DNA of 60,570 nt from Spirochaetia bacterium (GCA_034003145.1 JAVEZE010000002.1:1-60570); one strand, 5' to 3'. Counted from the first letter of the stretch, positions 39,654-60,570 are shown. The notes: generated by a model from the sequence alone, not told the origin. Translations and numbers: made by a program.

Positions 39654-39825
39654 AAAATTTCAGGATCACTACGGGCAAAACATCCCGGGTTTGCTTTTAT
39701 GGGCTTATTTACAGATATTTTTCGGACTTGACCGAAGTGATCGAAGTTCTGGATAGGGAATTTTTCATACTTCCCGGCTGAAAATTTGATTTTATTACAT
39801 TAATGAGTATATATTATATATAGAT

Positions 39826-40389
39826 ATGGAAATCATAGATATTGCAGAAACATTGATAATTCAGGGGATGTACTCTGATGCCAAAACTGTTCTCAACCGG
39901 CTTCTTGAAGAAGAGCCTGACAACAATGAGGCAGTCTGTCTTATTGGAATCGCGCTTACAGAAAGCGGAGAAAACGACAAGGCAATCAAAGCGCTTGATT
40001 ACTGCCTGAGCAAAAACAGCTATAATGCCGCGGCATGGGAAGCGCTCGGCTGCGCCTGGATGAGAAAGAGTGAGCTCCAAAAAGCAAAAGATTCTCTTGA
40101 ATCGGCAATTAAGCTTGAACCTGAAAACTGGTCTGTAAAAAGAAACATGGGAGTTCTGTATATATTAAAAAGAGATTACAAAAAAGCAAAAGAGCTGCTG
40201 GAATTTGCCAGAGAAAAAAAACCGGAAGATTACAAAACAATATATGCGCTTATTTACGCCTGTGTAAACCTTAAGGAATATGATGAAGCTGAAAATCTTA
40301 TCAGGGAAATACTTTTCCTCGATATTACTGAAGATATAAAAAATGATGTGGAGCAGCTTTTGATACGAATACAGGCGAAAATGATCTAA
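39826..40389 (+). CDS. Tetratricopeptide-repeat protein
   Basis: Several 34-aa TPR-like units (e.g. AAAWEALGCAWMRKSELQKAKDSLESAIKLEPEN). Confidence 0.65.
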   Translation: MEIIDIAETLIIQGMYSDAKTVLNRLLEEEPDNNEAVCLIGIALTESGENDKAIKALDYCLSKNSYNAAAWEALGCAWMRKSELQKAKDSLESAIKLEPENWSVKRNMGVLYILKRDYKKAKELLEFAREKKPEDYKTIYALIYACVNLKEYDEAENLIREILFLDITEDIKNDVEQLLIRIQAKMI

Positions 40390-40433
40390 TAAATTACAAA
40401 ATACTGTATTTAATGAATAATCCTAAAAAAAAA

Positions 40434-40462
40434 TTGATAAATTTGTCAATATGCCTTATAAT
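40434..40462 (+). promoter_or_regulatory. Sigma70-type promoter TTGATA-N17-TATAAT upstream of ackA
   Basis: TTGATA at 40434-40439, a 17-nt spacer, TATAAT at 40457-40462, about 70 nt upstream of the start codon. Confidence 0.6.
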
Positions 40463-40529
40463 AAACGGGTAAAAGTTCTGTTACATTTTAAAAAAACAAA
40501 ATATTTCAGGTATCTTCCGGAGGTGTAAG

Positions 40530-41741
40530 GTGAATATTCTTGTACTAAACAGCGGCAGTTCTTCCATTAAATTTAATCTCTGGAAGATTGAGGCTAAACA
40601 ACTGCTTTGCAAGGGAATTATTGAAAAAATCGGTAAAAAAGACAGTTCCATGACCTACTGCCCCAACGGCGGGAAAATTGTTTTTGAAATAGAGTTATTA
40701 AACCATAAAGATGGAATCCAGTTTGTCCTTGATACAATAACAGACTGCAATAACGGTGTTGTAAAAAGTATTAAAGATATTGATGCGGTTGGACACAGGG
40801 TTGTCCATGGCGGCGAAAGAATAACACAGTCAGAGCTTGTTACCAAAGAGATTGAAAAAATTATTGAAGAGTGCATAATGCTTGCGCCGCTGCATAACCC
40901 GGCTAACCTTGAAGGAATAAGGGCGATTGGCAATGTTCTTCCTGATGTCCCCAATATAGCGGTATTTGATACAGCATTTCACTCTACCATGCCTCCAAAA
41001 GCCTATGTATATCCTTTACCATATGAATTCTATGAAAAGTATAAAATAAGAAAATACGGTTTTCACGGGACTTCGCATAAATATGTCTCACTGCGTGGCG
41101 CGGAAATACTTGGATTAAAGCCAAATAAATTCAATTGCATAACATGTCATCTTGGAAACGGTTCTTCTATCGCAGCGGTAAAGAACGGTTTGTCTGTTGA
41201 CACAACAATGGGGTTTACCCCTCTTGCCGGCCTTCCCATGGGGACAAGAACCGGAAGTATTGACCCTTCCATTATTCTTTATATGATAGAAAATCTGGGT
41301 TATGAACCCAAAGCTGTCAATGACATTTTGAACAAGGAATCTGGTTTCAAGGGTATTTCAGGCATTTCATCAGATTTGCGGGAAGTAAGCAAAGCTGCAA
41401 AAGAAGGGCATGTAAGGGCAATTCTTACATTGAAGATTTTCGCCCATGCTGCCAAAAAATTTATCGCAGGGCTTGCTACTGAAATGGAAGGAAGGGTTGA
41501 TGCCATAATCTTTACAGGAGGGATTGGCGAGAACTCTTCCGAGTCAAGGGAGCTTATCTGTGAAGGTTTGCAGATATTCGGAGCGCAAATCGATCTTGAG
41601 AAAAACACATTTATTAAAGGTGAAGGGTTTATTTCTCAGGATGATTCGGAGATCAGTATATTGGTAATTCCTACAAATGAAGAGCTTATGATAGCACTCG
41701 AGACACAGCGGATTGTTGATGCCAAAAAAAAGGTGAAATAA
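40530..41741 (+). CDS. ackA: Acetate kinase
   Basis: ILVLNSGSSSIKF, VGHRVVHGG, APLHNPANL, YGFHGTSH and IIFTGGIGENS. GTG start after GGAGG. Confidence 0.92.
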   Translation: MNILVLNSGSSSIKFNLWKIEAKQLLCKGIIEKIGKKDSSMTYCPNGGKIVFEIELLNHKDGIQFVLDTITDCNNGVVKSIKDIDAVGHRVVHGGERITQSELVTKEIEKIIEECIMLAPLHNPANLEGIRAIGNVLPDVPNIAVFDTAFHSTMPPKAYVYPLPYEFYEKYKIRKYGFHGTSHKYVSLRGAEILGLKPNKFNCITCHLGNGSSIAAVKNGLSVDTTMGFTPLAGLPMGTRTGSIDPSIILYMIENLGYEPKAVNDILNKESGFKGISGISSDLREVSKAAKEGHVRAILTLKIFAHAAKKFIAGLATEMEGRVDAIIFTGGIGENSSESRELICEGLQIFGAQIDLEKNTFIKGEGFISQDDSEISILVIPTNEELMIALETQRIVDAKKKVK

Positions 41742-49601: not shown

Positions 49602-51812
49602 TTAATCTTTTAAGGCAGATACAAAGAGGTAAACGCTTTTCCATTTAACCTCTCTCCCTGCAAGTTTTTTTATTGTTTCACCTTTGATTTTATTGTAAAG
49701 CGCATCCCCTGTTGAAGCGGAAAGGAGACTGCCGTAGCTGCCGGGTTTTTCAATATTAAACCATTTTTCAATATCAGAAATCTGGATAAAGCGGGTTTCA
49801 AACCATGTTTTTTCCCTGCTGCGGATCTCCCTGAATCCGCTGGCAGAAAAAAGATCTCTAATATAATCTTCATTTAATCCAGTAATATTACTGGTTTTTT
49901 CTTTATATACCGCTTCCTCAGCTTTGACAAATTCCTCCATCTCTTTATCATCAAGCAAAGATGTCTCAAGAAACTGTGAAATCCTTGAAGACTTTGATAC
50001 AAGATTTTCCGCAAGAGAAACTCTTCCGCCTGTATCAAGAATTGAGAAAAACCCGTCTGCGAGGATAGCTCTGTCGTTGGAGCGGAGAAATATGTTTTTC
50101 CCTGTAATAATATCAAAAATACCAGGTTCTGCTTCGTTTTCAATATATTCTGCGAGATTGTTTTCTATAAGAACAGGTTTTTCTGTCTCTTCTACAGGCA
50201 GTGGAGATTTTTCAATTATTTCTATGTCTGCGGGGTTTTCGCTGATGAAAAAGACACCCCCTTCCGGAACAAGCCTTAACCCTTCCCATACAAGAAGTCC
50301 CCTGTCCGCCGATGCCACAAGAATCCTGTCATACCTCCTTATTTTTATCTGCGAGTATATTTCTTCCCTGATTGCGGAGAGAATAACGTTTTTGTTATCT
50401 GAAACCCTTTTCAGCCATGCATCCTTTTTTTTGTCTTGCGGTGAAAAAGTCAGGATCTCCTCATCAGAGTCTTCTCTTTCAACCTGCGCCGCAAGCTGCA
50501 CCTCTCTTCTGCGGGAAAGCTCATTTTTAAGTTCCGCCTCAAAACCGATATCGCCGGGTTTATAGAATATCCTCCCTTTAAGCGCTTCAGGAAGATATTG
50601 CTGTGCTACCCAATGGTCCCTGTAGGCGTGGGGGTAAAGATAGTTTTTCCCGTGCCCGAAACTTTCTTTATCTCTGGATGGATCTTTAAGGTTTACAGGG
50701 ACACTGCTTTGTTTATCCTCTCTCACAGCTTCAAGCGCGTCAAAGAAAGAGAGAGCTGTGTTGGATTTTTTGGCACAGGCAAGGTAAAGCGCGGTTTCTG
50801 CCAGGATAAGCTGTCCTTCCGGCATTCCTATCCTCTCGTAAGCCTGCGCCGCGGCATTTACAAAAACAAGAGCGTTTGGATCTGCAAGCCCAATATCCTC
50901 CGCCGCTGAGATTATCATTCTTCTGAGTATGAATCTGGGATCCTCTCCAGCATCTATCATCCTTGCCATCCAGAAAAGAGCGGCATCCGGGTCAGAGCCT
51001 CTTATTGATTTGATAAAAGCGCTGATAGTATCAAAGTGATAATCCCCCTCTTTGTCATAAAGCAGTACCTTTTTCTGTATACTCTCCTCTGCTGTTTCCT
51101 TTGTTACATATATTAAGTGTCCCTCTGGCGGAGGAAACTCTTCCGGTGTTGTCTCAATTGAAAGTTCAAGAGCGTTGAGCATGCTTCTTGCATCCCCGTT
51201 TGCGATATCAGCAAGATGTTCAAGCGATCCTTTTTCAAACTCAATTTTATAATTTCCATAACCTTTTTCTGTGTCAGCTATTGCTTTTTCAGCTGCCCTT
51301 AGCAGATCCTCTTTTGTAAGGGGGAGCAGCTGAAATATCCTGCTCCTGCTTACAAGGGCGGAATTGACTTCATATAATGGATTTTCAGTTGTCGCCCCGA
51401 TAAGGATAAAGGTTCCGTTCTCCACCCATGGCAGGAGCGCGTCCTGCTGGGCCTTGTTCCACCTGTGCACCTCATCTACAAAGAGTATTGTCTTCTGGTT
51501 GTATAACTCAAGCTTCTTTTTGGCTTCAATAATAGCTTCCCGTATTTCTTTTACTCCGGAAAGGACCGCATTAATTGTAATAAAAGCGCTCTTTGTTGTT
51601 TTCGCGATTATCCGCGCCAGTGTTGTTTTTCCTGTTCCCGGAGGGCCGTAGAAGATAAGGGAAGATAACTGGTCTGCCTGTATTGCCCGCCGCAGAAGTC
51701 TCCCTTTTCCCACAAGATGCTCCTGGCCGATGAAATCATCCAGATTCTCCGGGCGCATCCTTGCAGCCAGAGGCAGTGCTGTCGGGTTTGCTGATGCCAT
51801 AAATAAGTCCAT
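49602..51812 (-). CDS. rarA: Replication-associated recombination protein RarA/MgsA fused to a C-terminal extension of about 290 aa (methyltransferase-fold-like)
   Basis: LAARMRPENLDDFIGQEHL, Walker A GPPGTGKTT, VDEVHRWNK and ARMIDAGEDPRFILRR are RarA hallmarks. The start is probably ATG 51812 or 51800, not 51992. Confidence 0.8.
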   Translation of the reverse strand: MDLFMASANPTALPLAARMRPENLDDFIGQEHLVGKGRLLRRAIQADQLSSLIFYGPPGTGKTTLARIIAKTTKSAFITINAVLSGVKEIREAIIEAKKKLELYNQKTILFVDEVHRWNKAQQDALLPWVENGTFILIGATTENPLYEVNSALVSRSRIFQLLPLTKEDLLRAAEKAIADTEKGYGNYKIEFEKGSLEHLADIANGDARSMLNALELSIETTPEEFPPPEGHLIYVTKETAEESIQKKVLLYDKEGDYHFDTISAFIKSIRGSDPDAALFWMARMIDAGEDPRFILRRMIISAAEDIGLADPNALVFVNAAAQAYERIGMPEGQLILAETALYLACAKKSNTALSFFDALEAVREDKQSSVPVNLKDPSRDKESFGHGKNYLYPHAYRDHWVAQQYLPEALKGRIFYKPGDIGFEAELKNELSRRREVQLAAQVEREDSDEEILTFSPQDKKKDAWLKRVSDNKNVILSAIREEIYSQIKIRRYDRILVASADRGLLVWEGLRLVPEGGVFFISENPADIEIIEKSPLPVEETEKPVLIENNLAEYIENEAEPGIFDIITGKNIFLRSNDRAILADGFFSILDTGGRVSLAENLVSKSSRISQFLETSLLDDKEMEEFVKAEEAVYKEKTSNITGLNEDYIRDLFSASGFREIRSREKTWFETRFIQISDIEKWFNIEKPGSYGSLLSASTGDALYNKIKGETIKKLAGREVKWKSVYLFVSALKD

Positions 51813-52248
51813 GAGGAAAGTATAAGCTAAAAAGGGATTTTCTGTAAGATTTATAACTGAAGTGATTAAGGATATTGATATTCCTGATTTCACCTGGCAG
51901 ATTTTTCTGAAACAAAAAAATCTGCAATTTTTAGAAATTTTTTTGAAAAATATTTGGGCAAAAAGGGAGAGAAAATTTTCTGTTTTTAACATTTATTTGA
52001 TAGATCAGGTTTAACAAGTGAAAATATCAGTAAAAAAGCATATTAATCTGAAAAATATCAAATAAAAACTCTTTTATTGTGAATGCAATAACATATAAAT
52101 AGCTTATTTATTTTATATTGCTACGTACGTTGTTATTAAAATATTATTTTACTATTAATGTTACGTGAGTTACAATAAAAGATGCGGGAATCGAAAGAAT
52201 TTTAATCTTTTTTTCTATTTCCGGAAATAACGGCCAATTAGGGGGTTT

Positions 52249-52857
52249 GTGAAAATGAAGACCGAACTTGATGAAGTCAAAAAAGAAACCGCACAGTGTT
52301 CCTGCGGCGAGGATGAAGAATCTTTATATCCAGGGCTTGATGTGGTTATAGACGGGTTTATCGGAGTACCGGGTGCTCTTATACCTGTGCTGCAGTCTGC
52401 TCAAAATATTTTTGAATATCTGCCTGAAAAAGCTTTGAAGCATATCAGCAGGAGAATGAAAATACCATACAGCGAAGTAACAGGGGTTGTTACTTTTTAT
52501 TCATATTTTTCAACTGTTCCCCGCGGAAAACATATTATAAGGGTTTGTCTCGGTACTTCCTGTTATGTAAGAGGCGGAAAAGCAGTTCTTGAGGCAATCC
52601 AGAATAAACTTTCAATTCCGGTAGGCGGAACTACTGTAGACAGGATGTTTTCGCTCGAAGTAGGAAGGTGCTTCGGGGCATGCGGGCTTGCCCCGACAAT
52701 ATCGATTGATGGAAAAGTCTATAAGAGGGTAAAACCGACTAAAGTCGGCGAAATACTGGAACCTTTTTATGCGGAAGCTGAGGCTGAGGTGAACGCGGAA
52801 ACAGGGACAAACATGGAAACAGGGACAACCGCGTATGCGCAAAGTGAGGTGGTATAA
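52249..52857 (+). CDS. NuoE/HydC-like thioredoxin-fold [2Fe-2S] subunit
   Basis: IPVLQSAQ...VCLGTSCYVRGG...GRCFGACGLAP is the NuoE-type cysteine pattern. The C-terminal tail is acidic and Thr-rich. Confidence 0.85.
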   Translation: MKMKTELDEVKKETAQCSCGEDEESLYPGLDVVIDGFIGVPGALIPVLQSAQNIFEYLPEKALKHISRRMKIPYSEVTGVVTFYSYFSTVPRGKHIIRVCLGTSCYVRGGKAVLEAIQNKLSIPVGGTTVDRMFSLEVGRCFGACGLAPTISIDGKVYKRVKPTKVGEILEPFYAEAEAEVNAETGTNMETGTTAYAQSEVV

Positions 52858-55800
52858 ATGAGTAATGAAAAAAAACCCAGAAAAAAAATTACCTCATTGG
52901 AAGATCTTGAAAAAATCAAAAACGATTCGCTGAAAAGAATAGCGGTAAGACTTGAGGACCCGGCTTCCAAAGGACTGCCTGGTGAGACACCTTTTCATAT
53001 TATGTTCTGTTTTGGGACTGCATGTCTTTCATCAGGTGCTGCTTTTGTAAAAAAAGCTTTTGTGGAAAGCCTTGAGAAAAACAAAATTGCAGATAAAGTT
53101 ACACTTGTTGAAACAGGCTGTAACGGATTCTGCGCCGGCGGGCCGATTGTTGTAGTATATCCGGGCGGCTACTTCTATCAGAAGGTAGGGCCTGAAGATA
53201 CTGCTGAAATTGTAGAGAGCCATCTTGTAAAGGGAAAACCAGTAAAAAGACTGATGTTTCAAAATCCTGTTAACGGTGAAGTTATACCAAAATACAAGGA
53301 TATATACTTTTTCGCGCTTCAGAATTTACGGGTGCTTCATAATAAGGGTATTATCTCTGCAACCAATATAGAGGATTATATTGCGCGGGACGGTTATTTC
53401 GGATTTTATAAAGCGCTCAAAAACCTAAAGCCTGAGGGGGTGATTGAAGAGATTATTGCCTCGGGACTGAGGGGAAGAGGAGGGGCAGGATTTGCTACCG
53501 GCCTTAAGTGGAAATTCTGCAGCAAGGCAGTAAGTGATAAAAAATACATTATCTGCAATGCTGATGAAGGGGATCCCGGCGCATTCATGGACAGAAGTAT
53601 CCTTGAGGCAGACCCCCATGCAGTGCTTGAAGGAATGATGATAGGAGCCAGCGCGATAGGCGCTGATACAGGCTACATCTACTGCAGGGCTGAATATCCT
53701 CTTGCTCTTCAAAGGCTTGAGCATGCAATCAACGAATGCCGCGAACTGGGGTTGTTTGGGAAGAATATTCTGGGCACGAACTTTTCATTTGATGTAAAGA
53801 TAGCTCAAGGGTCAGGCGCTTTTGTCTGCGGAGAAGAGACCGCTCTTATGCGGTCTATAGAGGGAAAAAGGGGAGAGCCCCGGCCCAGGCCGCCGTTCCC
53901 TGCTGTTAAAGGACTTTTTGATAAGCCTTCAGTTTTAAATAATGTTGAAACATTCGGCAATATTCCGCTTATTATTTTGAACGGCGCGCAGTGGTTTAAA
54001 AGTATTGGAACTGAAAAGTCTCCAGGGACAAAGATTTTCGCTCTTACCGGTAATGTAAACAATATCGGCCTTGTCGAAGTAAATATGGGAACGCCTCTTG
54101 GAGATATAATCTATGAAATCGGCGGGGGAATCCCAAACGGGAAAAAATTCAAGGCAGCGCAGATAGGAGGCCCATCAGGCGGCTGTATTACAAAGGCGCA
54201 TCTTAATATGCCGGTTGACTATGAGTCAGTAGTTGAACTGGGCGCCATAATGGGCTCAGGCGGCCTTATTGTAATGGATGAAGATACATGCATGGTTGAT
54301 ATGGCAAGATTTTTCCTTGAATTTATCCAGGAAGAATCGTGCGGAAAATGTGTCCCGTGCCGTGTCGGAACCAAAAGAATGCTTGAGATTGTTACCAGAA
54401 TATGCGAAGGAAAGGGAGAGCTTGAAGATATTGAAAGGCTTGTCATACTTGGAAACCAGATCAAGGATACTGCATTATGCGGACTTGGGCAGACAGCCCC
54501 GAATCCGGTTCTCTCGACTATAAGATATTTCCGGGATGAGTATGAGGCCCATATCCTTGAAAAAAGATGCCCTGCCGGCATATGTCCAAGCCTTGTAAGA
54601 GCCCCGTGTCAGAGCGGATGTCCCGCAAAAGTGGATATCCCTTCATTTGTCGCGCTCACAGGTGAAAAAAGATATGCTGAAGCTCTTCAGGTGCACAGAA
54701 ACAGAAATCCCTTTGCAGCAATATGCGCAAGGGTATGTTTTCATACCTGTGAGGAGAAATGCAAGAGAGCTGCTCTTGATGAATCTGTTTCAATCCGGGG
54801 AGTAAAAAGATTTCTTGTTGATCAGGAAGTTATTATTCAAAAACCTGAAAGCAGGGAAAGCGAGCGCAACGCGAAAAGAAAAATAGCAATTATCGGAGCA
54901 GGGCCCGCAGGTCTTTCCTGCGGCTTTTTCCTTGCCCGTCTTGGATACAAACCCAGGGTGTTTGAATCGGAACTGAGGCCTGGTGGGATGCTTGTTCAGA
55001 CTATTCCGTCTTACCGCCTTCCGAGGGAAACTCTTGCCCGCGAGATAAGAATGATAGAACAGCTTGGTGTCGAGATCGAAACAGGAGTATCACTTGGCAA
55101 GGATTTTACGTTGAAGAGCCTTGCCGATGAGGGATATGAGGCAATATTTATGGGGGTCGGAGCTCCGGATTCAATAACACTCGGGCTGCTTGGAGAAGAA
55201 GCAGATAACGTTACTGACGCGATTCCGTTCCTGAAACAGTATAATATAAGGGGTTCAGTCCCGGTTGGAAAGAATGTAATTGTTATCGGCGGCGGTAACG
55301 CCGCAATTGATGCCGCAAGAACCGCGCTGCGCCTCGGTTCTGAAAGTGTCAAGGTTATTTACAGGAGAAGCCAGGGCGAAATGCCGGCTTATGATGAAGA
55401 GATTGAAGAAGCTCTCTCTGAGGGTGTTGTTCTGATGACGCTGACACAGCCGGTTGAGGTTATCAAAAATGAAAAAGGGCTTGCATCAGGCTTGCGGTGC
55501 ATTCCAATGAAACTTGGCGAATATGACAGGACAGGGAGAAGAAGACCGACTGAAAAAGAGGGCGAAACATTTATTCTTGATGCTGACCAGATAATTATCG
55601 CGATTGGGCAGAAACTTAAATCAGAAAAACTGCTTGGAGATACAAAACCGGTTCTAACCAAACAGGGATTTATTCAAACCAACCCTGTTACAGGGCAGAC
55701 AAGCCTTCCGTGGCTTTTTGCCGGAGGCGATAACGCAACCGGCCCTGCCTCTGTGGTAAACGCCATTGCCGGCGGAGAGCGGGCAGCTGTAGGGATTCAT

Positions 55801-56082
55801 GACTATCTTCTCGGAGAAGGTGCCCCGTTCTGGAGAGAGGAACAGATAATAGATATGGAATATGATCCTGATGCTGACCCTGTTCCATATCCGAGGGAAA
55901 AAACCAGATCAATCGCTGTCGAGCGGAGAAGGCATAATTTCGATGAGGTAGAGCTGGCGTGGAATGAAAGTGTCGCGGTAAGGCAGTGCAAAAGATGCTT
56001 AAGGTGCGACTACGGTAAAGTTCAAGGCCCGCTTGTAGAAACAAGCGTACAGGTTGTAAGGGAGGTACCAATAAATGCCTAA
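52858..56082 (+). CDS. Fusion protein: [2Fe-2S] domain + NuoF/HydB-like FMN/NADH flavoprotein + GltD/NfnB-like FAD/NADPH oxidoreductase
   Basis: NuoF part: GLRGRGGAGFATGLKW, CNADEGDPGAFMDR, ESCGKCVPCRVG. GltD part from about 54568: APCQSGCPAKVDIP, NPFAAICARVCFHTCEEKC, IAIIGAGPAGLSCG, VIVIGGGNAAIDAART, and the C-terminal CKRCLRCD. Confidence 0.85.
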   Translation: MSNEKKPRKKITSLEDLEKIKNDSLKRIAVRLEDPASKGLPGETPFHIMFCFGTACLSSGAAFVKKAFVESLEKNKIADKVTLVETGCNGFCAGGPIVVVYPGGYFYQKVGPEDTAEIVESHLVKGKPVKRLMFQNPVNGEVIPKYKDIYFFALQNLRVLHNKGIISATNIEDYIARDGYFGFYKALKNLKPEGVIEEIIASGLRGRGGAGFATGLKWKFCSKAVSDKKYIICNADEGDPGAFMDRSILEADPHAVLEGMMIGASAIGADTGYIYCRAEYPLALQRLEHAINECRELGLFGKNILGTNFSFDVKIAQGSGAFVCGEETALMRSIEGKRGEPRPRPPFPAVKGLFDKPSVLNNVETFGNIPLIILNGAQWFKSIGTEKSPGTKIFALTGNVNNIGLVEVNMGTPLGDIIYEIGGGIPNGKKFKAAQIGGPSGGCITKAHLNMPVDYESVVELGAIMGSGGLIVMDEDTCMVDMARFFLEFIQEESCGKCVPCRVGTKRMLEIVTRICEGKGELEDIERLVILGNQIKDTALCGLGQTAPNPVLSTIRYFRDEYEAHILEKRCPAGICPSLVRAPCQSGCPAKVDIPSFVALTGEKRYAEALQVHRNRNPFAAICARVCFHTCEEKCKRAALDESVSIRGVKRFLVDQEVIIQKPESRESERNAKRKIAIIGAGPAGLSCGFFLARLGYKPRVFESELRPGGMLVQTIPSYRLPRETLAREIRMIEQLGVEIETGVSLGKDFTLKSLADEGYEAIFMGVGAPDSITLGLLGEEADNVTDAIPFLKQYNIRGSVPVGKNVIVIGGGNAAIDAARTALRLGSESVKVIYRRSQGEMPAYDEEIEEALSEGVVLMTLTQPVEVIKNEKGLASGLRCIPMKLGEYDRTGRRRPTEKEGETFILDADQIIIAIGQKLKSEKLLGDTKPVLTKQGFIQTNPVTGQTSLPWLFAGGDNATGPASVVNAIAGGERAAVGIHDYLLGEGAPFWREEQIIDMEYDPDADPVPYPREKTRSIAVERRRHNFDEVELAWNESVAVRQCKRCLRCDYGKVQGPLVETSVQVVREVPINA

Positions 56083-57847
56083 CGCAATGATAAATAATTT
56101 TGAAATCCAGTTTGAGCCTGGTGATACAATACTAAAAGCAGCGCAGGCTGCCGGGATAGAGATACCGACACTCTGTTTTCTTGAAGGCAAAGATCCCCTG
56201 GGAGCCTGCAGGGTATGTGTAGTTGAAATAGACAAGAATAAAGCGCTTGTTGCAGCCTGCGCCACTCCAATAATCGATGGTATGAAAATAATGACCAATA
56301 CCAAGAGGGTGAGGGAAGCGAGGAGGACAGTTGTTGAGCTGCTCTTGAGCGAGCACGAAGGAAACTGTCAGTACTGCGACAGGGCGGAAGACTGCGAATT
56401 GAAAAAACTCGCATATCAGCTTGGAATAAGCGAAATAAGATACGAAGGGGAAAAACCTTTATCATGGACTGATGAATCAACGCCAGCGCTTATCCGCGAT
56501 CAGGCTAAGTGCATTAAATGCAGAAGATGCGTAACAGTATGCAACACTGTACAGGGTGTCGGCGCGCTGTTTCCGCAGGGAAGGGGTTATGCTACAGTTA
56601 TAAGCACAGCGTTTGACTACGGGCTTGATACAGTTGCCTGTGTTCAGTGCGGACAGTGTTCCGCTGTCTGCCCTGTCGGGGCGATTACTGAAAGAAGCCA
56701 TATTGATGAAGTATGGAAAGCGATTGAGGATCCTGAAAAATACGTTGTTGTTCAGACCGCGCCTGCCATCAGGGCTGCTTTGGGCGAATGTTTCGGATAT
56801 GAGCCAGGGACACTTGTCACAGGAAAGATGGTATCCGCTTTAAGGCTTTTGGGGTTTGACCGGGTCTTTGACACAAACTTTGCTGCAGACCTCACCATAA
56901 TGGAAGAAGGGACAGAACTTTTGACAAGACTTAAAACCGCGCTGGTGGATAAAAAACCTGCCTCTTTCCCGATGTTCACTTCCTGCTCTCCAGGCTGGGT
57001 TAAATACGCTGAGTATTTTTATCCCGAATTTTTACCAAACATATCAACATGTAAATCTCCCCAGCAGATGTTCGGAGCTGTTGCCAAAACATATTTTGCG
57101 GAAAAAGCGGGAGTTGATCCTAAGAATATGATTGTTGTTTCTGTTATGCCCTGTACTGCGAAGAAATTTGAGTGTGACAGGCCGGAAATGTCATCAAGCG
57201 GAAGCAAGGATGTAGATTATGTCCTTACCACAAGGGAACTGGGAAGAATGATCCAGTCCGCGGGAATTGACTTTAAATTGCTCCCCGACGGACAGATGGA
57301 CAGCCCGATAGGGATGTCATCCGGGGCTGCTGATATTTTCGCGAATACCGGCGGAGTAATGGAAGCTGCCCTTCGGACAGTATACGAGATTGTCACAGGA
57401 AGGGAAATCCCAATGGAAGGTCTGCATGTTAAACCGGTTGAAGGGCTTGCGGGGATCAAGGAGGCATCTGTAACCTTTACCGATACAGTTTCTGACTGGG
57501 GATTTCTTGAAGGAGTTACAGCCAAAGTCGCAGTTGCCCACGGTCTTGGAAACGCGAGAACACTTCTTGACAGCATCAATGAGGGAAAGAGCCAGTACCA
57601 CTTTGTAGAGATCATGACCTGCCCCGGCGGATGTATAGGGGGCGGCGGCCAGCCGCGTCTTACTACAGATGAAGTGCGTCTGGCAAGGATAAAAGCGGTT
57701 TACAAGGAGGATGAGGGAAAAGAGATAAGAAAATCCCATATGAACCCTGAGATTTTAAGTATTTATAAAGATTATTTAATTAAACCGCTTGGGGAAAAAT
57801 CACACCACCTGCTTCATACCCATTATATTGAAAGAATGAGGGTGTAA
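56075..57847 (+). CDS. [FeFe]-hydrogenase HydA-like catalytic subunit (M3-type Fe-S domains), paralog 1, non-canonical L1 motif
   Basis: N-terminal 2Fe-2S and 4Fe-4S motifs (CIKCRRCVTVC, CVQCGQCSAVCP). H-domain motifs FTSCSPGW (L1 variant), MPCTAKKFE (L2) and EIMTCPGGCIGGGGQP (L3). The ATG overlaps the upstream stop. Confidence 0.85.
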   Translation: MPNAMINNFEIQFEPGDTILKAAQAAGIEIPTLCFLEGKDPLGACRVCVVEIDKNKALVAACATPIIDGMKIMTNTKRVREARRTVVELLLSEHEGNCQYCDRAEDCELKKLAYQLGISEIRYEGEKPLSWTDESTPALIRDQAKCIKCRRCVTVCNTVQGVGALFPQGRGYATVISTAFDYGLDTVACVQCGQCSAVCPVGAITERSHIDEVWKAIEDPEKYVVVQTAPAIRAALGECFGYEPGTLVTGKMVSALRLLGFDRVFDTNFAADLTIMEEGTELLTRLKTALVDKKPASFPMFTSCSPGWVKYAEYFYPEFLPNISTCKSPQQMFGAVAKTYFAEKAGVDPKNMIVVSVMPCTAKKFECDRPEMSSSGSKDVDYVLTTRELGRMIQSAGIDFKLLPDGQMDSPIGMSSGAADIFANTGGVMEAALRTVYEIVTGREIPMEGLHVKPVEGLAGIKEASVTFTDTVSDWGFLEGVTAKVAVAHGLGNARTLLDSINEGKSQYHFVEIMTCPGGCIGGGGQPRLTTDEVRLARIKAVYKEDEGKEIRKSHMNPEILSIYKDYLIKPLGEKSHHLLHTHYIERMRV

Positions 57848-57894: not shown

Positions 57895-57934
57895 GCTGTA
57901 TGACAGGCTGCACTGCCATACAGCTGTTTTTTTT
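57895..57934. terminator. Bidirectional rho-independent terminator between the convergent hydrogenase-type clusters
   Basis: A-run, then GCTGTATGACAG-gctgca-CTGCCATACAGC, then TGTTTTTTTT. Confidence 0.7.
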
Positions 57935-58038: not shown

Positions 58039-59811
58039 CTATACTGTTTTAGCTGTATAGCTTGTGTGAAGAAGATGATGTGAGATTTCGCCAAGAGGCT
58101 TGATCAGAAAACTATCATACAGCGCCTGGATATCAGGGTTTTCATGCGATTTTCTGATCCCCAGATTTATATCTTCCCTGTAAATCGATTCAGCCCTTTT
58201 TTTCCTTATCTCCCATGTAGTCGGAATGGGCTGGCCTCCACCTCCAAGGCAGCCTCCAGGGCATGCCATTACCTCAATAAAGGCATAGGGAGATTTTCCC
58301 TCTTTTATTTGATCAAGCAGTGTTCTGGCGTTTTTAAGCGAGTGGGCAACAGCTACCCGTACAGGATTGCCGTTTATGCTGATCTGGGCTTCCTTTATCC
58401 CTTCCATCCCCCTAACCCCTGTAAAATCAACCTTTTCAAGGACAGTTCCTGTAAGCACTTCGTAGGCGGTCCGAAGGGCGGCTTCCATTACTCCGCCTGT
58501 CGCGCCGAATATTACAGCTGCCCCGGTTGATTTTCCAAGCGGGTTGTCAAAATTCTCTTCTTCAAGCCCTGCAAAATCAATTCCGGTTTCCCTGAACATT
58601 CTTGCAAGCTCCCTTGTTGTAAGAGCATAGTCCACATCGGGAAAGCCTGTCCTGTTTTTCAGTTTTCTTCTTTCCTTCCAGTAGTGGAACGCGGAATTCA
58701 TCTCGGGCCGTTCTGCCTCGTATTTTTTGGCGGTGCAGGGCATTACCGAGATTACCCTTATTTTTTCAGGATCAAGTCCTGCCTGCTCTGCGTACCAGGT
58801 TTTTGCCACTGCTCCGAACATCTGCTGGGGAGACTTGCAGGTAGAGACATTTGCCAGTTGGTCCGGAAAAAAATGCTCGATGAATTTAATCCAGCCAGGT
58901 GAGCAGGATGTTATCATGGGAAGCGTCCCTCCTGATGAAATCCTTTTAATCAGCTCATGCCCCTCTTCCATTATGGTCAGGTCTGCAGTGAACTGCGTAT
59001 CAAAAACCTTGTCAAAACCCAGTTTTCTTATCCCTGCAACCATTTTACCTGTTACAAGAGCTCCGCTCTCCATCCCCATGGCCTCTCCAATTCCAATACG
59101 GATAGCAGGAGCTGTCTGAATAACTGTGTAAATATCAGGATCATATATATCCCGCCAGATGCTGCTGATATCTGACTTTTCAATTATCGCCCCGGTCGGG
59201 CATACCAGTGAACACTGTCCGCAGTTGGTGCAGACAGAATTCCCCAGCCCCCTGTCCATGAAAGTCGTGACACGGCTGTTAAGTCCCCTTCCTGTCACCT
59301 CAATCGCGTTTACAGTCTGTACTTCGCTGCATACGCTGACGCACCTGTTGCATAGGATACACTTGTTAGGATCCCTGATAAGAGCGGATGATGATGTATC
59401 GAGGGGAAGTATTGTTGTTTTTGTCCTGGCATAATGCAATTCTCTCACCCCAAGTTCCCATGCCAGTTTCTGCAGCTCGCAGTTCTGGTTCCTGTCGCAT
59501 TTAAGGCAGTCATCAGGATGGTTTGCGAGGATAAGCTCCATATTTGTTTTTCTTGCTTTTCTTATCCTTTCAGAGCTTGTAATTATCTCCATGTCTGCCC
59601 AGACTGAATATGAGCAGGAGCGGACAAGTTTTTTTGATCCTTTTACTTCAACACAGCAGATCGCGCAGGAAGCGTTGGATGAGACATCTTCCATATAGCA
59701 TAAATGGGGAATATTTATCCCTACCTCTTTGCAGGCGTTGAGAATTGTTGTTCCCTCATTAACCAGATATTTCCTGCCGTCAATAGTTACAGATATTTTG
59801 TTCTTTTTCAT
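58039..59811 (-). CDS. [FeFe]-hydrogenase HydA-like catalytic subunit, paralog 2, same non-canonical L1 motif
   Basis: ITSCSPGW, MPCTAKKYE and EVMACPGGCLGGGGQP, with N-terminal Fe-S domains collinear with paralog 1. ATG 59811 forms an ATGA overlap with the upstream gene stop. Confidence 0.85.
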   Translation of the reverse strand: MKKNKISVTIDGRKYLVNEGTTILNACKEVGINIPHLCYMEDVSSNASCAICCVEVKGSKKLVRSCSYSVWADMEIITSSERIRKARKTNMELILANHPDDCLKCDRNQNCELQKLAWELGVRELHYARTKTTILPLDTSSSALIRDPNKCILCNRCVSVCSEVQTVNAIEVTGRGLNSRVTTFMDRGLGNSVCTNCGQCSLVCPTGAIIEKSDISSIWRDIYDPDIYTVIQTAPAIRIGIGEAMGMESGALVTGKMVAGIRKLGFDKVFDTQFTADLTIMEEGHELIKRISSGGTLPMITSCSPGWIKFIEHFFPDQLANVSTCKSPQQMFGAVAKTWYAEQAGLDPEKIRVISVMPCTAKKYEAERPEMNSAFHYWKERRKLKNRTGFPDVDYALTTRELARMFRETGIDFAGLEEENFDNPLGKSTGAAVIFGATGGVMEAALRTAYEVLTGTVLEKVDFTGVRGMEGIKEAQISINGNPVRVAVAHSLKNARTLLDQIKEGKSPYAFIEVMACPGGCLGGGGQPIPTTWEIRKKRAESIYREDINLGIRKSHENPDIQALYDSFLIKPLGEISHHLLHTSYTAKTV

Positions 59812-60570
59812 CTGAGGCCTCCCCTTTCGGAAAGTTTTATATCGCACCTTAAGCACCTCATCGCCTCACGGCGCGCCTGATCTCCCATGTACCCGAGGTT
59901 GATTTCCTGAAAATTACCTTTTCTTTCTTTTACATTCAGGTGCCTGCTTTCTATTCCTTCAGCCGATATAATCTCCTGCGGGATTTCATTGCTGTACTGG
60001 AATGTCCTGAACAGGGAGGAAAACCTGTTTTTACCTGTAAGGTCAAAATCAATTATGGCGGAAGCTGTTTTCGCAAGTCCCATTGCTTCAGCTGCTGTGG
60101 AAGGGCCGGTTGTTACATCCCCTGCCGCATAGATGCGGGGATTGCCAGTTTTGCAGGTGTATGGATTTACAAATGCGGTACCCTTTTCTGTTGTCAATAT
60201 TTTTTCCTGCTCAAGAAGGGCGGAATCTACTTTCTCTCCAACCGCGATTACGACAATATCACAGGGAAGAACAGAGATATTTCCTGTTTCAACAGGTTTT
60301 CTCCTGCCGGATAAATCAAATTGTCCCCCTTCCATTTTCATGATTTCAATTGCCTCGACACTGCCGTCACTGCTGCCTGTTATTCTTACCGGATTTGTCA
60401 TAAACATGAATTTTATCCCTTCAGCATGCGCTTCATCAATTTCACTTTTATTGGCCGGCATATCCTCTTTTGCCCTTCTGTAGACGACAGTTACATCTGC
60501 CCCTATTCTCCAGAGAGACCGCGCTGTATCAATTGCGACATTTCCTCCTCCGATAATTACAGCTTTTTTA
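59808..60570 (-). CDS. GltD/NfnB-like FAD/NADPH oxidoreductase module, N-terminus off-window (partial)
   Basis: The frame is open to the window edge (KKAVIIGGGNVAIDTARS...IYAAGDVTTGPSTAAEA...CLRCD) and collinear with the C-terminal third of the 52858-56082 fusion protein. Confidence 0.8.
   Translation of the reverse strand, partial: KKAVIIGGGNVAIDTARSLWRIGADVTVVYRRAKEDMPANKSEIDEAHAEGIKFMFMTNPVRITGSSDGSVEAIEIMKMEGGQFDLSGRRKPVETGNISVLPCDIVVIAVGEKVDSALLEQEKILTTEKGTAFVNPYTCKTGNPRIYAAGDVTTGPSTAAEAMGLAKTASAIIDFDLTGKNRFSSLFRTFQYSNEIPQEIISAEGIESRHLNVKERKGNFQEINLGYMGDQARREAMRCLRCDIKLSERGGLR

What the first reader, a model, noticed from the sequence alone, without database searches (positions are those of the whole stretch)
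52249..57847. Hybrid [FeFe]-hydrogenase-type operon: NuoE-like, a NuoF-like flavoprotein fused to a GltD/NfnB-like NADPH module, and HydA
**Seen in sequence**
- The three genes are coupled. The 1074-aa middle protein is one continuous ORF combining:
  - a thioredoxin-like [2Fe-2S] domain;
  - a complete NuoF/HydB core (FMN/NADH motifs GLRGRGGAGFATGLKW, CNADEGDPGAFMDR, ESCGKCVPCRVG);
  - from about 54568, a complete GltD/NfnB-type unit (two Cys clusters, FAD motif IAIIGAGPAGLSCG, NADPH motif VIVIGGGNAAIDAART).

**Established knowledge**
- HydABC-type electron-bifurcating hydrogenases use NuoE/NuoF-like subunits with NAD(H) and ferredoxin.
- NfnAB and the Sporomusa-type Stn transhydrogenase use a GltD-like NADPH module.
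- Glutamate-synthase-linked [FeFe] hydrogenases are a recognised but, as far as I know, functionally unresolved class.

**Inference**
- This arrangement puts an NADH site, an NADPH site, ferredoxin-type clusters and an H-cluster domain in one complex.
- It could couple H2 (or only electrons, if the H-domain is non-catalytic) to both pyridine nucleotide pools.
- I cannot say from memory that this exact three-gene architecture has been characterised.
Basis: partly seen in the sequence, partly recalled or inferred. Interest (0 to 1): 0.72.

Follow-up and report, generated by a model that had tools for sequence, protein, structure and literature searches.

The report
FeFe hydrogenase with fused NADPH module
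An uncultured spirochaete carries two back-to-back three-gene operons for an iron-only hydrogenase whose NADH-binding subunit has swapped its usual ferredoxin-docking tail for an NADPH-binding flavoprotein module; this design is widespread but biochemically untested, and it probably links hydrogen gas to both NADH and NADPH.

Summary
Three translationally coupled genes at 52249-57847 encode a NuoE/HydC-like protein, an uninterrupted 1074-aa NuoF/HydB::GltD fusion, and a HydA with intact H-cluster motifs.

- The GltD module does not simply add to HydB. It replaces the C-terminal 2x[4Fe-4S] ferredoxin-like domain (clusters B3/B4), which in HydABC/Bfu enzymes carries low-potential electrons to ferredoxin.
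- The GltD module is the circularly permuted, Lys-ligated type seen in Stn/NfnABC.
- A second, anciently diverged copy of the operon lies convergently at 58039 to the window end.

The fusion is not an artefact. All cofactor ligands and all three "bifurcating-type" HydB signatures are invariant in 121 homologues. The same trio recurs in at least six named lineages. Elsewhere the fused NuoE/NuoF::GltD core pairs with formate dehydrogenase, MetVF or a GltB-like protein.

No solved structure or biochemical study was found. One 2018 genome paper noted the architecture.

Best reading (inferred): a Bfu-type hydrogenase in which NADP(H) takes ferredoxin's place, 2 H2 + NAD+ + NADP+ <-> NADH + NADPH + 2 H+.

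Verdict: a new variant of a known kind, with a clearly testable mechanism.

The parts
52249..52857 (+). hydC/nuoE-like gene (BfuC): thioredoxin-like [2Fe-2S] subunit. The likely true start is the ATG at 52255.
   Evidence: PF01257 at residues 41-171, E 8e-45. Best PDB hit is T. kivui HydC 8a6t_C, E 2e-40. RBS AGGGGG at 52240-52245.
52858..56082 (+). hydB::gltD fusion gene (1074 aa): N-terminal [2Fe-2S] domain, NuoF FMN/NADH core with the B1 [4Fe-4S] cluster and the B2/Zn site, then a GltD-type 2x[4Fe-4S] + FAD + NADPH module.
   Evidence: The ORF is continuous and all cofactor ligands are invariant in 121 homologues.
52993..53217 (+). N-terminal thioredoxin-like [2Fe-2S] domain of the fusion (B5 cluster; Cys51, 56, 88, 92).
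   Evidence: PF01257 at 46-120. Cys51 is invariant and Cys56, 88 and 92 are Cys in 120 of 121 members.
53359..54585 (+). NuoF/HydB core: FMN loop, NADH site, B1 cluster (Cys495, 498, 501, 541) and B2/Zn site (Cys478, Cys516, His565, Cys571, Cys576). It carries the three 'bifurcating-type' signatures PGAFMDR, GAFVCGEE and GGPSG.
   Evidence: TIGR01959 at 168-566. 806 bits to A. mobile NiFe-HydB 7t2r_B. Signatures invariant, judged by the criteria of PMC7311640. B2 ligand identities from PMC9304861.
54598..56010 (+). GltD/NfnB-type module that replaces the B3/B4 ferredoxin-like domain. Distal cluster: Cys584, 635, 1047, 1050. FAD-proximal cluster: Cys588, 627, 631 plus Lys650. FAD motif at 678, NADPH motif at 810 with YRR835-837. 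The CxxC segment (1020-1051) is circularly permuted to the C-terminus.
   Evidence: alignments to 9bov_A, 8oh5_C, 9n5u_A, 4ylf_B. Ligand mapping from PMC11829005. Conservation.
56075..57847 (+). hydA: [FeFe]-hydrogenase catalytic subunit (BfuA) with an N-terminal 2Fe-2S / 4Fe-4S chain and the H-domain (residues 222-587; L1 TSCSPGW, L2 MPCTAKKFE, L3 EIMTCPGGCIGGGGQP).
57895..57924 (.). 12-bp-stem hairpin flanked by an A-run and a T-run. It is probably a bidirectional intrinsic terminator shared by the two convergent operons.
58039..59811 (-). hydA2: paralogous HydA (590 aa from the ATG at 59811; the ORF extends to a GTG at 59856). Same H-cluster motifs. Its ATG overlaps the stop of the upstream gene (ATGA).
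   Evidence: 865 bits to FeFe_hydrog_A6.
59808..60570 (-). 3' part (253 codons) of a second hydB::gltD fusion gene, cut off by the window end. In the relative L001 the full operon is NuoE-like (178 aa), fusion (1054 aa), HydA (590 aa).
   Evidence: The fragment is 89% identical to residues 802-1054 of the L001 paralogue.

Best explanation
This is a HydABC/Bfu-type cytoplasmic [FeFe] hydrogenase in which the ferredoxin arm has been exchanged for an NADP(H) arm.

Shown by sequence: HydA carries the H-cluster. The HydC-like subunit carries the [2Fe-2S] cluster that is mobile in solved Bfu enzymes. The HydB part keeps FMN, the NADH site, B1, the B2/Zn site, the N-terminal [2Fe-2S] and all 'bifurcating-type' signatures. 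Directly after the last B2/Zn ligand (Cys576), the usual 2x[4Fe-4S] ferredoxin-like domain (B3/B4) is replaced by a Stn/NfnA-type GltD module: two [4Fe-4S] clusters (one Lys-ligated), FAD and an NADPH site.

Inferred: the two GltD clusters take the place of B3/B4, so the low-potential branch of the flavin/cluster bifurcation site ends at FAD/NADP+ instead of ferredoxin. The enzyme would reversibly catalyse 2 H2 + NAD+ + NADP+ <-> NADH + NADPH + 2 H+. In a fermenting spirochaete it would run mainly towards H2, with the stronger reductant NADPH (about -380 mV in vivo) pulling the oxidation of NADH (about -280 mV). The average of about -330 mV equals the H+/H2 couple at roughly 100-150 Pa H2 (my own Nernst estimate).

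The broad claim, that the complex links H2 to both pyridine nucleotides, is much safer than the specific 1:1 coupled stoichiometry without ferredoxin.
For: 1. Architecture and coupling.
2. HydB homology runs through the B2/Zn ligands and then switches to GltD. No CxxCxxCxxxC ferredoxin motifs remain. The unfused BfuB genes picked up in the fetched loci have a ~135-aa tail after B1, nearly all (48 of 52 scored) with two such motifs; the fused proteins have a 390-577-aa GltD tail.
3. In Bfu enzymes B3/B4 are the path to ferredoxin, which binds beside them, and the C1 cluster swings between FMN and B3/B4 (PMC12018979; PMC9304861).
4. All cofactor ligands are invariant or nearly so in 121 homologues. 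This includes His565 and Lys650 (the equivalent of Lys170, which ligates the FAD-proximal cluster in NfnA/StnC) and YRR (NADPH 2'-phosphate site, from established knowledge)..
5. All three of Losey's bifurcating-versus-non-bifurcating signatures are of the bifurcating type and invariant.
6. Only 8 residues separate the last B2/Zn ligand from the first ligand of the distal GltD cluster, so that cluster must sit where the B3/B4 domain normally emerges.
7. In Stn the homologous GltD flavin is a plain, non-bifurcating NADPH entry point.
8. The potentials fit: NAD -280 mV and NADP -380 mV in vivo, H2 -414 mV standard (Table 1 of PMC9304861). At about 100 Pa, H2 lies between the two nucleotides.
9. 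The trio is conserved in several named lineages (Spirochaetales, Chitinivibrionales, Prolixibacteraceae, Armatimonadota, Omnitrophota, Ignavibacteriales, Planctomycetota). In one Planctomycetota MAG it is flanked by HydS-like sensor kinases, as expected for a real H2-metabolising enzyme.
Against: - No biochemical or structural data exist for any member.
- The AF2 model is confident within domains but not between them (pTM 0.62; junction pLDDT 64-67).
- Class III relatives (B1 domain + GltD + HydA, with no FMN domain and no HydC detected) show that the GltD clusters can be wired to B1 directly. If that holds here, GltD hangs on the mid-potential node and not on the gated low-potential arm.
- A stand-alone GltD-like protein (CAC0764) exchanges electrons directly with ferredoxin, so ferredoxin might still dock on the GltD clusters.
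- The operon-2 paralogue has His instead of Lys650 and lacks one Cys of the N-terminal [2Fe-2S], so the two enzymes may not work identically.
- The source of catabolic NADPH in this organism is unknown.
- No hydE/F/G genes lie in the window.
Confidence: 0.42

Rival explanations
1. The hydrogenase is still ferredoxin-dependent and has a built-in NADP(H) branch. The two GltD [4Fe-4S] clusters act as B3/B4 equivalents and also dock ferredoxin, as in NfnB and CAC0764. The low-potential arm then serves ferredoxin and/or NADP(H), so the complex combines HydABC with a ferredoxin:NADP+ reductase or Nfn-like function (four substrates).
For: GltD-like modules do exchange electrons with ferredoxin through these clusters: CAC0764 is a strictly NADP(H)-specific FNOR, and NfnB's clusters lead to ferredoxin (from established knowledge). 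The bifurcating-type signatures are conserved. Cys623, invariant here, is shared with NfnB but not with NfnA/StnC.
Against: The module is of the Stn/NfnA type (Lys ligand, permuted topology), and in Stn/NfnABC that type is an internal NADPH entry point rather than a ferredoxin site. The experimentally observed ferredoxin site in a Bfu enzyme lies between the BfuC C-terminal domain and the BfuB ferredoxin-like domain, which is missing here.
Confidence: 0.25
2. A simple, uncoupled dual-cofactor hydrogenase. H2 equilibrates with NAD(H) at FMN and with NADP(H) at FAD through one common Fe-S network, with no energetic coupling between the two nucleotides.
For: Class III relatives, made of only the B1 domain + GltD + HydA, imply a direct B1-to-GltD wire with no gating subunit. 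They are read in the literature as NADPH-dependent hydrogenases. Cys516 is conserved, as in the NiFe enzyme where B2 is a real [2Fe-2S] cluster. That could bridge B1 to the GltD clusters.
Against: An ungated network would also act as an uncoupled NADPH:NAD+ transhydrogenase and dissipate the NADPH/NADH disequilibrium. The HydC-like subunit, the N-terminal [2Fe-2S] and all bifurcating-type signatures are retained and invariant. Known non-bifurcating NADH hydrogenases have lost them.
Confidence: 0.2
3. An H2-dependent Nfn-like transhydrogenase. NADP(H) is the mid-potential partner and H+/H2 plays ferredoxin's role: H2 + NADH + 2 NADP+ <-> 2 NADPH + NAD+ + H+.
For: The standard potentials of H2 and ferredoxin are similar (Table 1 of PMC9304861). 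The GltD module is the one used by Stn/NfnABC, where NADPH is the mid-potential substrate.
Against: In every solved Bfu enzyme the BfuA path (here HydA) delivers the mid-potential substrate to B1/FMN. GltD sits on BfuB after the B2 site, not in BfuA. At the low H2 pressures typical of anoxic habitats, H2 is a weaker reductant than NADPH.
Confidence: 0.08
4. An artefact or a dead gene: a mis-assembled or frameshifted junction, or a non-catalytic (sensory) H-domain.
For: None beyond the unusual L1 motif TSCSPGW.
Against: The ORF is continuous. At least 120 homologous clusters share the same junction with almost no gaps. The paralogous second copy has the same architecture. TSCSPGW is the commonest L1 form in ordinary HydABC loci and in the solved chain 7q4v_A. 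HydA has no PAS or kinase domains.
Confidence: 0.01

Closest known systems
[quoted passage not shown]
   Same: Same three-subunit layout and gene order. HydA aligns full-length (615 bits to 8a6t_A). HydC aligns. The HydB core, with FMN/NADH site, B1, B2/Zn ligands, N-terminal [2Fe-2S] and the bifurcating-type signatures, is conserved.
   Different: The C-terminal 2x[4Fe-4S] ferredoxin-like domain (B3/B4) of HydB, which is the route to ferredoxin, is absent. A ~490-residue GltD FAD/NADPH module takes its place.
Stn / NfnABC (Nfn-Bfu) transhydrogenases (S. ovata 8oh5, C. saccharolyticus 9bov, T. sibiricus 9n5u)
   Same: Best structural relatives of the GltD part (352, 332 and 318 bits). They share the circular permutation (the CxxC segment follows the Rossmann domains), the same Lys ligand on the FAD-proximal cluster, and the combination with a BfuBC core.
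   Different: There the GltD module is inserted in the NuoG-like BfuA subunit, which has no H-cluster, and BfuB keeps B3/B4 and reduces ferredoxin. Here GltD is on BfuB, B3/B4 are gone, and BfuA is a real HydA.
Trimeric hydrogenase of Vallitalea guaymasensis L81 with an 'enlarged beta-subunit' (genome annotation only; PMC6163223)
   Same: [quoted passage not shown]
   Different: It was only noted in a genome paper, with no biochemistry, structure or family analysis. I did not compare the sequences directly.
GltD-linked [FeFe] hydrogenases (my Class III; HydDB group A2 by my recollection; called 'NADPH-dependent FeFe hydrogenase' for Schnuerera ultunensis in bioRxiv 10.1101/2021.07.06.451242)
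   Same: A HydA gene is preceded by a gene for a Lys-type GltD module that is joined to the B1-cluster domain of NuoF.
   Different: Class III lacks the FMN/NADH domain and the N-terminal [2Fe-2S], and no NuoE-like gene was detected in those loci, so it has one nucleotide site rather than two.
NfnAB/NfnSL and the stand-alone FNOR CAC0764
   Same: Same GltD/NfnB fold, two [4Fe-4S] clusters, FAD, and NADPH specificity.
   Different: NfnB has Glu rather than Lys at the cluster ligand, an unpermuted N-terminus and an NfnA partner. Neither enzyme is attached to a NuoF core or a hydrogenase.
Non-bifurcating NADH-dependent [FeFe] hydrogenases (S. wolfei Hyd1ABC, S. aciditrophicus HydAB)
   Same: NuoE/NuoF-type diaphorase plus HydA, and also without the B3/B4 domain.
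   Different: Those enzymes carry the non-bifurcating signatures (T/S and K/S/A, Tyr, no GGPSG) and have no GltD module. The window protein has the bifurcating signatures.

Membership tests
HydABC / FeFe-Bfu electron-bifurcating hydrogenase | HydA with H-cluster motifs L1-L3 and an N-terminal Fe-S chain | tested here: met
   TSCSPGW / MPCTAKKFE / EIMTCPGGCIGGGGQP. NCBIfam FeFe_hydrog_A6 879 bits against a cutoff of 765. Full-length alignment to 8a6t_A and 7q4v_A.
HydABC / FeFe-Bfu electron-bifurcating hydrogenase | BfuC (NuoE-like) subunit with a [2Fe-2S] cluster | tested here: met
   PF01257, E 8e-45. Hit to 8a6t_C, E 2e-40.
HydABC / FeFe-Bfu electron-bifurcating hydrogenase | BfuB core with FMN/NADH site, B1, B2/Zn ligands, and bifurcating-type signatures (A232/M234, F367, GGPSG in T. 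maritima numbering) | tested here: met
   PGAFMDR, GAFVCGEE and GGPSG are present and invariant in 121 homologues. Cys478, His565, Cys571 and Cys576 are invariant, and Cys516 is Cys in 114 of 121.
HydABC / FeFe-Bfu electron-bifurcating hydrogenase | BfuB C-terminal ferredoxin-like domain with two [4Fe-4S] clusters (B3/B4; IPR017896 is part of the published Bfu definition) | tested here: not met
   No Fer4-type Pfam hit in the fusion other than Fer4_20 of GltD. Alignment to HydB ends at the B2 ligands. Of the 52 unfused BfuB tails scored, 48 carry two CxxCxxCxxxC motifs.
HydABC / FeFe-Bfu electron-bifurcating hydrogenase | Ferredoxin- and NAD-dependent bifurcating/confurcating activity | not testable with these tools
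   Needs enzyme assays.
Stn / NfnABC (Nfn-Bfu) transhydrogenase | GltD module with a Lys-ligated FAD-proximal [4Fe-4S] cluster and a permuted CxxC segment | tested here: met
   Lys650 aligns with Lys170 of 9bov_A and 8oh5_C and is invariant. Colinear alignment runs to ...RCLxC at the module's C-terminal end. The operon-2 paralogue has His instead.
Stn / NfnABC (Nfn-Bfu) transhydrogenase | GltD inserted in a NuoG/FdhF-like BfuA that lacks an H-cluster, and BfuB retaining B3/B4 | tested here: not met
   Here GltD is C-terminal on BfuB, and BfuA is a HydA with an H-domain.
NfnAB / NfnSL | NfnB with a Glu-ligated cluster and an unpermuted N-terminus, plus an NfnA (FAD, [2Fe-2S]) partner gene | tested here: not met
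   Lys instead of Glu, and a permuted topology. No NfnA-like gene lies in the operons. A true NfnAB pair is seen in L016 for comparison.
Glutamate synthase GltBD | Adjacent GltB large subunit (Glu_synthase / GATase domains) | tested here: not met
   No other ORF above 800 aa, and no Glu_synthase hit, near the operons in the window or in L001. GltB-like partners do occur with the fused core in L015 and L018.
Non-bifurcating NADH-dependent [FeFe] hydrogenase (S. wolfei type) | T/S and K/S/A at T. maritima HydB positions 232/234, Tyr at 367, no GGPSG | tested here: not met
   The window protein has A/M, Phe and GGPSG.
GltD-linked [FeFe] hydrogenase (Class III; HydDB A2 by recollection) | HydA gene immediately preceded by a GltD-type gene | tested here: met
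   True here, but the GltD gene additionally encodes a complete NuoF core and is preceded by a NuoE-like gene. HydDB itself could not be run.

The most novel reading that the evidence does not exclude
The NuoE + NuoF::GltD pair defines an unrecognised, ferredoxin-independent branch of the Bfu family in which NADP(H) replaces ferredoxin as the low-potential partner. Electron bifurcation or confurcation then takes place between the two pyridine-nucleotide pools. This core is used modularly with HydA, formate dehydrogenase, MetVF methylene-THF reductase and a GltB-like enzyme, in many bacterial phyla and in a Promethearchaeota (Loki) MAG. The published Bfu census probably missed it, because that census required a ferredoxin-type 4Fe-4S domain in BfuB.
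Probability: 0.3. Interest if true: 0.8.

Novelty: new variant of a known kind. Interest (0 to 1): 0.6.

Why it matters
All characterised HydABC/Bfu enzymes use ferredoxin as the low-potential partner. The field currently treats the cofactor set of the BfuBC core as invariant (PMC9304861).

This family is a natural domain swap: the ferredoxin arm is removed and an NADPH/FAD module sits in its place, while every signature of a bifurcating core is kept. If NADP(H) really substitutes for ferredoxin, three things follow:
- Fermenters would have a way to dump NADH and NADPH as H2 without any ferredoxin.
- Predicted H2 thresholds and redox budgets for spirochaetes, Planctomycetota, Omnitrophota and other groups in anoxic habitats would change. 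Such genes are currently annotated simply as 'NuoF' and counted as ordinary group A3 or A2 hydrogenases.
- The field would gain a clean experimental system for asking what the low-potential branch of the still poorly understood Bfu bifurcation site requires.

If instead the enzyme proves to be uncoupled or still ferredoxin-dependent, it remains a new and common hydrogenase subtype that needs its own functional label.

Tried and rejected
1. "This is Stn." Rejected: the PDB-sequence searches show that Stn/NfnABC carry GltD in the 1170-aa NuoG-like subunit, and here HydA is a true hydrogenase.
2. Dead or sensory H-domain because of TSCSPGW. Rejected: this is the majority L1 form in ordinary HydABC loci and in 7q4v_A. 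A full-text search for 'TSCSP' returned only irrelevant papers.
3. Assembly artefact at the junction. Rejected.
4. Glutamate-synthase coupling in this organism. No gltB lies nearby.
5. Literature searches for a characterised NuoF-GltD hydrogenase found only the V. guaymasensis remark. The Bfu census, the Losey HydB study and the Schuchmann review do not mention it. Only open-access text was searchable.
6. Single origin of the fusion. A neighbour-joining tree of BfuB cores (no bootstrap) did not resolve the fused proteins as one clade. They are absent from the large canonical HydB clade of mostly Clostridia/Bacillota MAGs and are interleaved with BfuBs of non-hydrogenase Bfu loci. Left open.
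7. The AF2 model was meant to test the wiring, but coordinates are not exposed and pTM is only 0.62, so it gave no distances. I therefore did not run fold search, because the sequence search had already shown that no PDB chain covers both halves.
8. hydE/F/G were sought in the window and not found among the 20 larger ORFs scanned. The whole genome could not be scanned.
9. The 5' membrane complex is not a ferredoxin-oxidising [NiFe] hydrogenase. Its large subunit has no CxxC motifs, so it cannot support a 'division of labour' argument.


Full report
**1. Observation**

The three ORFs exist exactly as described: 52249-52857 (+, 202 aa), 52858-56082 (+, 1074 aa, uninterrupted) and 56075-57847 (+, 590 aa). 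The first stop abuts the second ATG, and genes 2 and 3 overlap by 8 nt. A Shine-Dalgarno AGGGGG at 52240-52245 favours the ATG at 52255 over the GTG at 52249 as the first start.

Pfam and NCBIfam confirm the domains:
- Gene 1 is a NuoE/HydC-type thioredoxin-like [2Fe-2S] protein.
- Gene 2 has an N-terminal [2Fe-2S] domain (46-120), a complete NuoF core (Complex1_51K, SLBB, NADH_4Fe-4S; TIGR01959 at residues 168-566) and a GltD unit (Fer4_20 at 576-657, Pyr_redox_2 at 675-973).
- Gene 3 is a HydA that scores 879 bits against NCBIfam 'FeFe_hydrog_A6' (cutoff 765).

The fusion is not an artefact. At least 120 protein clusters at 63-91% identity share the full-length architecture, and the junction aligns almost without gaps (251 residues in 252 columns across 21 diverse members).

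**2.

(a) A second, paralogous operon. On the minus strand, 58039-59856 encodes another HydA. Its likely start is the ATG at 59811, which forms an ATGA overlap with the stop of the upstream gene. That upstream gene is the 3' end of another NuoF::GltD gene and runs off the window. A 91%-identical relative on a 3.9-Mb contig (L001; it carries the Treponema family TP_0437) shows the complete second operon: NuoE-like 178 aa, fusion 1054 aa, HydA 590 aa. The paralogues are old. By tblastn, the NuoF core is 57% identical, GltD 34% and the H-domain 55%. By blastp over the full length, the two fusions are 42% identical. A 12-bp hairpin with an A-run and a T-run at 57895-57924 looks like a shared bidirectional terminator.

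(b) The GltD module replaces part of HydB. Alignment to the solved HydB chains (7t2r_B, 7q4v_B, 8a6t_B, 8oh5_B) runs through ...EYEAHIxxKxCPAGxC, which holds the last ligands of the B2/Zn site. HydB then continues with the CxGCGxCxxxCP ferredoxin-like domain. The window protein instead continues with the GltD signature APCQSGCPAKVDIPSF. Across the fetched loci, unfused BfuBs have a ~135-aa tail after B1, and 48 of the 52 scored carry two CxxCxxCxxxC motifs. The fused proteins have a 390-577-aa tail with FAD and NADPH motifs.

(c) The GltD module is of the Stn/NfnA type. Its best PDB relatives are the GltD inserts of C. saccharolyticus NfnA (9bov_A, 352 bits), T. sibiricus NfnA (9n5u_A) and S. 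ovata StnC (8oh5_C), ahead of NfnB (4ylf_B). As in those proteins, the segment RRxNFxEV...RCLxC lies after the Rossmann domains (residues 1020-1051). In NfnB and GltD it is N-terminal. The short alignments to the N-termini of 4ylf_B and 5jca_L are individually weak (i-E 2-6) but consistent at motif level. PMC11829005 gives the ligands of the FAD-proximal cluster as Cys108, Cys147, Cys151 and Lys170. In the alignment these map onto Cys588, Cys627, Cys631 and Lys650.

**3. Family-level conservation**

In 121 homologues the following are invariant or nearly so:
- N-terminal [2Fe-2S] cysteines 51, 56, 88, 92.
- B1 cysteines 495, 498, 501 (102 of 121) and 541.
- B2/Zn ligands Cys478, Cys516 (114 of 121), His565, Cys571, Cys576.
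- GltD cysteines 584, 588, 623, 627, 631, 635, 1047, 1050.
- Lys650, the FMN loop, NADEGDPGAF, the FAD motif, and the NADPH motif with YRR.

Losey et al. (PMC7311640) list three signatures that separate bifurcating from non-bifurcating HydB: A/E232 with M234, F367, and GGPSG. All three are of the bifurcating type and invariant here (PGAFMDR, GAFVCGEE, GGPSG), and the operon-2 paralogue has them too. That paralogue differs in having His for Lys650 and only three Cys in the N-terminal [2Fe-2S] motif.

**4. Is HydA catalytic?**

L2 and L3 are canonical. The L1 motif is TSCSPGW rather than TSCCPxW. From memory, the second Cys of TSCCP is a [4Fe-4S]H ligand in CpI, so I checked this. TSCSPGW is the commonest form among HydA genes of ordinary HydABC loci (25 of 37). 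It also occurs in the solved HydA1 chain 7q4v_A, which by my recollection is the A. woodii enzyme of the two-enzyme set mentioned in PMC11829005. It is therefore no sign of a dead domain. HydA has no sensory domains.

**5. Distribution and context**

An exhaustive phmmer search against 1.84 billion 50%-identity representatives found about 13 full-length fused representatives among the best 150, plus about a dozen ~610-660-aa proteins that match only residues ~450-1050.

Combined with tblastn context, it gives five classes:
- Class I: NuoE + fusion + HydA with an H-domain. Found in the window (both operons) and in MAGs labelled Chitinivibrionales, Prolixibacteraceae, Armatimonadota, Omnitrophota, Ignavibacteriales and deltaproteobacteria, among others. 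Also found in a Planctomycetota MAG and in two further unnamed metagenome contigs. In the Planctomycetota MAG, HydS-like sensor kinases flank the operon.
- Class II: the same fused BfuB with other partners, verified by Pfam. These are a molybdopterin formate-dehydrogenase-type BfuA (L012, and likely L007 and L016, with the ORF split probably at a selenocysteine codon); MetV + MetF methylene-THF reductase (L008, and likely L010 and L014); and a small [2Fe-2S] protein plus a Glu_synthase-like protein (Promethearchaeota Loki_b31 L015, there followed by at least one glutamate dehydrogenase and probably a second; also Aminicenantes L018).
- Class III: a ~610-aa protein made of only the B1-cluster domain of NuoF plus a Lys-type GltD, followed by HydA (Schnuerera, Collinsella, Lachnospiraceae and others). 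This is the type that one preprint calls 'NADPH-dependent FeFe hydrogenase' for S. ultunensis.
- Class IV: canonical HydABC.
- Class V: Stn/NfnABC.

A neighbour-joining tree of BfuB cores (no support values) does not resolve a single origin of the fusion.

**6. Literature**

Stn (PMC7483475, PMC10482914) and NfnABC (PMC11829005, PMC12018979) place GltD in BfuA. The Bfu census (PMC9304861) defined BfuB by domains that include the ferredoxin-type 4Fe-4S domain IPR017896, and it stresses the absolute conservation of the BfuBC cofactors. It does not mention this fusion and probably excluded it by construction; I could not test IPR017896 directly. The only description found is in the Vallitalea guaymasensis genome paper (PMC6163223), which noted an enlarged beta-subunit with a GltD domain and suggested a second NAD(P)H site, without experiments. 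No PDB chain combines NuoF and GltD. Public annotation of the closest relative reads 'NuoF' and 'iron hydrogenase small subunit'.

**7. Mechanism**

Shown by sequence: one complex holds an H-cluster, a bifurcating-type FMN/NADH core together with the HydC [2Fe-2S] subunit (mobile in solved homologues), and an NADPH/FAD module whose first cluster ligand follows the last B2/Zn ligand by only 8 residues.

Established for homologues: in Bfu enzymes the third substrate enters through BfuA to B1 and FMN, NAD+ is the high-potential acceptor, and low-potential electrons leave via C1 to B3/B4 and ferredoxin. The Stn-type GltD flavin is a non-bifurcating NADPH port.

Inference: the GltD clusters stand in for B3/B4, so NADP(H) replaces ferredoxin, giving 2 H2 + NAD+ + NADP+ <-> NADH + NADPH + 2 H+. 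The in-vivo potentials quoted in PMC9304861 are NAD about -280 mV and NADP about -380 mV, with H2 at -414 mV standard. My own Nernst estimate puts H+/H2 at about -325 mV at 100 Pa, which lies between the two nucleotides, as the bifurcation logic requires. The NADH/NADPH average of -330 mV corresponds to about 150 Pa H2.

Caveats:
- Class III shows that the GltD clusters can be wired straight to B1 without gating.
- CAC0764 shows that GltD-like clusters can talk to ferredoxin.
- The AF2 model (mean pLDDT 83.7, pTM 0.62) gave no usable inter-domain geometry.

I therefore give the specific model 0.42. The rivals are a ferredoxin-retaining four-substrate enzyme (0.25), an uncoupled dual-cofactor hydrogenase (0.20) and an H2-dependent Nfn (0.08).

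**8. Verdict**

The system is not a member of the HydABC/Bfu family as published, because the B3/B4 criterion fails. It is not Stn (GltD sits in the wrong subunit, and an H-cluster is present). It is not NfnAB, GltBD or the non-bifurcating NADH hydrogenases. It is a new variant of a known kind. It is common, ancient (two diverged paralogues lie side by side), modular (at least four partner types), noticed once in passing in the literature, and uncharacterised. Interest 0.6: a specialist would not be astonished by another modular rearrangement. Even so, a widespread bifurcating-type core without a ferredoxin arm contradicts the stated invariance of the BfuBC core, and it yields a simple, decisive experiment.

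Noticed in passing
window 58039-60570 (minus strand): A second, anciently diverged copy of the operon (hydA2 plus the 3' end of a second nuoF::gltD fusion) lies convergent to the first and is cut off by the window end. In the relative L001 it is complete. Its fusion has His in place of the Lys cluster ligand and only three Cys in the N-terminal [2Fe-2S] motif.
   Followed up: yes
window 19-6428 (+): A gene cluster for a membrane complex resembling a group-4 [NiFe] hydrogenase or Mrp system: two Proton_antipo_M proteins, a polytopic protein at 1117-2046 that looks HycD/NuoH-like by eye, a fused NuoC/NuoD-like protein at 4128-5639, and a protein at 5655-6428 whose Cys motifs look like a NuoI/NuoB fusion (by eye, not scanned). 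The NuoD-like subunit has no CxxC motif at all, so it lacks the [NiFe] ligands. This looks like an Ehr/Mbx-type 'hydrogenase-related' complex of unknown substrate.
   Followed up: partly
window 57895-57924: A strong 12-bp-stem hairpin with an A-run upstream and a T-run downstream lies between the two convergent operons. It is probably a bidirectional intrinsic terminator.
   Followed up: partly
L012 11771-14476; L008 11840-13557; L015 11788-15486; L018 2046-3883: In other organisms the same NuoE + NuoF::GltD core sits next to partners other than HydA: a formate-dehydrogenase-type molybdopterin protein (ORF split, probably at a selenocysteine codon), MetV+MetF methylene-THF reductase, or a small [2Fe-2S] protein plus a Glu_synthase-like protein. 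In the Loki_b31 archaeal MAG this is followed by a confirmed glutamate dehydrogenase and a second GDH-like ORF.
   Followed up: partly
L020, L022, L025, L027, L029, L031 (about 10000-13500 in each): These loci encode a ~610-aa protein made of only the B1-cluster helical domain of NuoF fused to a Lys-type GltD, followed by HydA (Schnuerera, Collinsella, Cryptobacterium, Lachnospiraceae). It looks like a truncated relative of the window fusion and a likely plain NADPH-linked hydrogenase.
   Followed up: partly
L084 1827-3398 and 10855-15048: In a Planctomycetota MAG the fused-type hydrogenase operon is flanked by HydS-like proteins (Fe_hyd_lg_C + FeS + histidine-kinase domains), response regulators and a PHP protein. 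This suggests H2-sensing control of the operon.
   Followed up: no
window 56075-57847 and the HydA genes of L003-L082: The H-cluster L1 motif reads TSCSPGW (Ser at the second 'Cys' position) in most HydABC-type HydA genes sampled (38 of 54 ORFs with H-cluster motifs) and in PDB chain 7q4v_A. By my recollection that position is a [4Fe-4S]H ligand in CpI, so the ligation in these enzymes deserves a look.
   Followed up: partly
window 49602-51992 (-): A RarA/MgsA-type AAA+ protein (Pfam hits at residues 79-494) carries a ~300-residue C-terminal extension with no Pfam hit at E<=1e-5. The relative's gene call is 736 aa, so the listed 796-aa ORF probably starts too early.
   Followed up: no
window 36008-41741 (+): A carboxyltransferase (36008-37558) and an OAD_beta Na+-pumping decarboxylase subunit (38475-39590) are followed by acetate kinase (40530-41741). 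This is the signature of a fermentative anaerobe with a decarboxylation-driven sodium pump.
   Followed up: no
L016 14873-17130: A canonical NfnA/NfnB pair lies directly downstream of a fused NuoF::GltD + Fdh-type cluster in a Dehalococcoidia MAG. The fused core and a classical Nfn therefore coexist in one locus.
   Followed up: no
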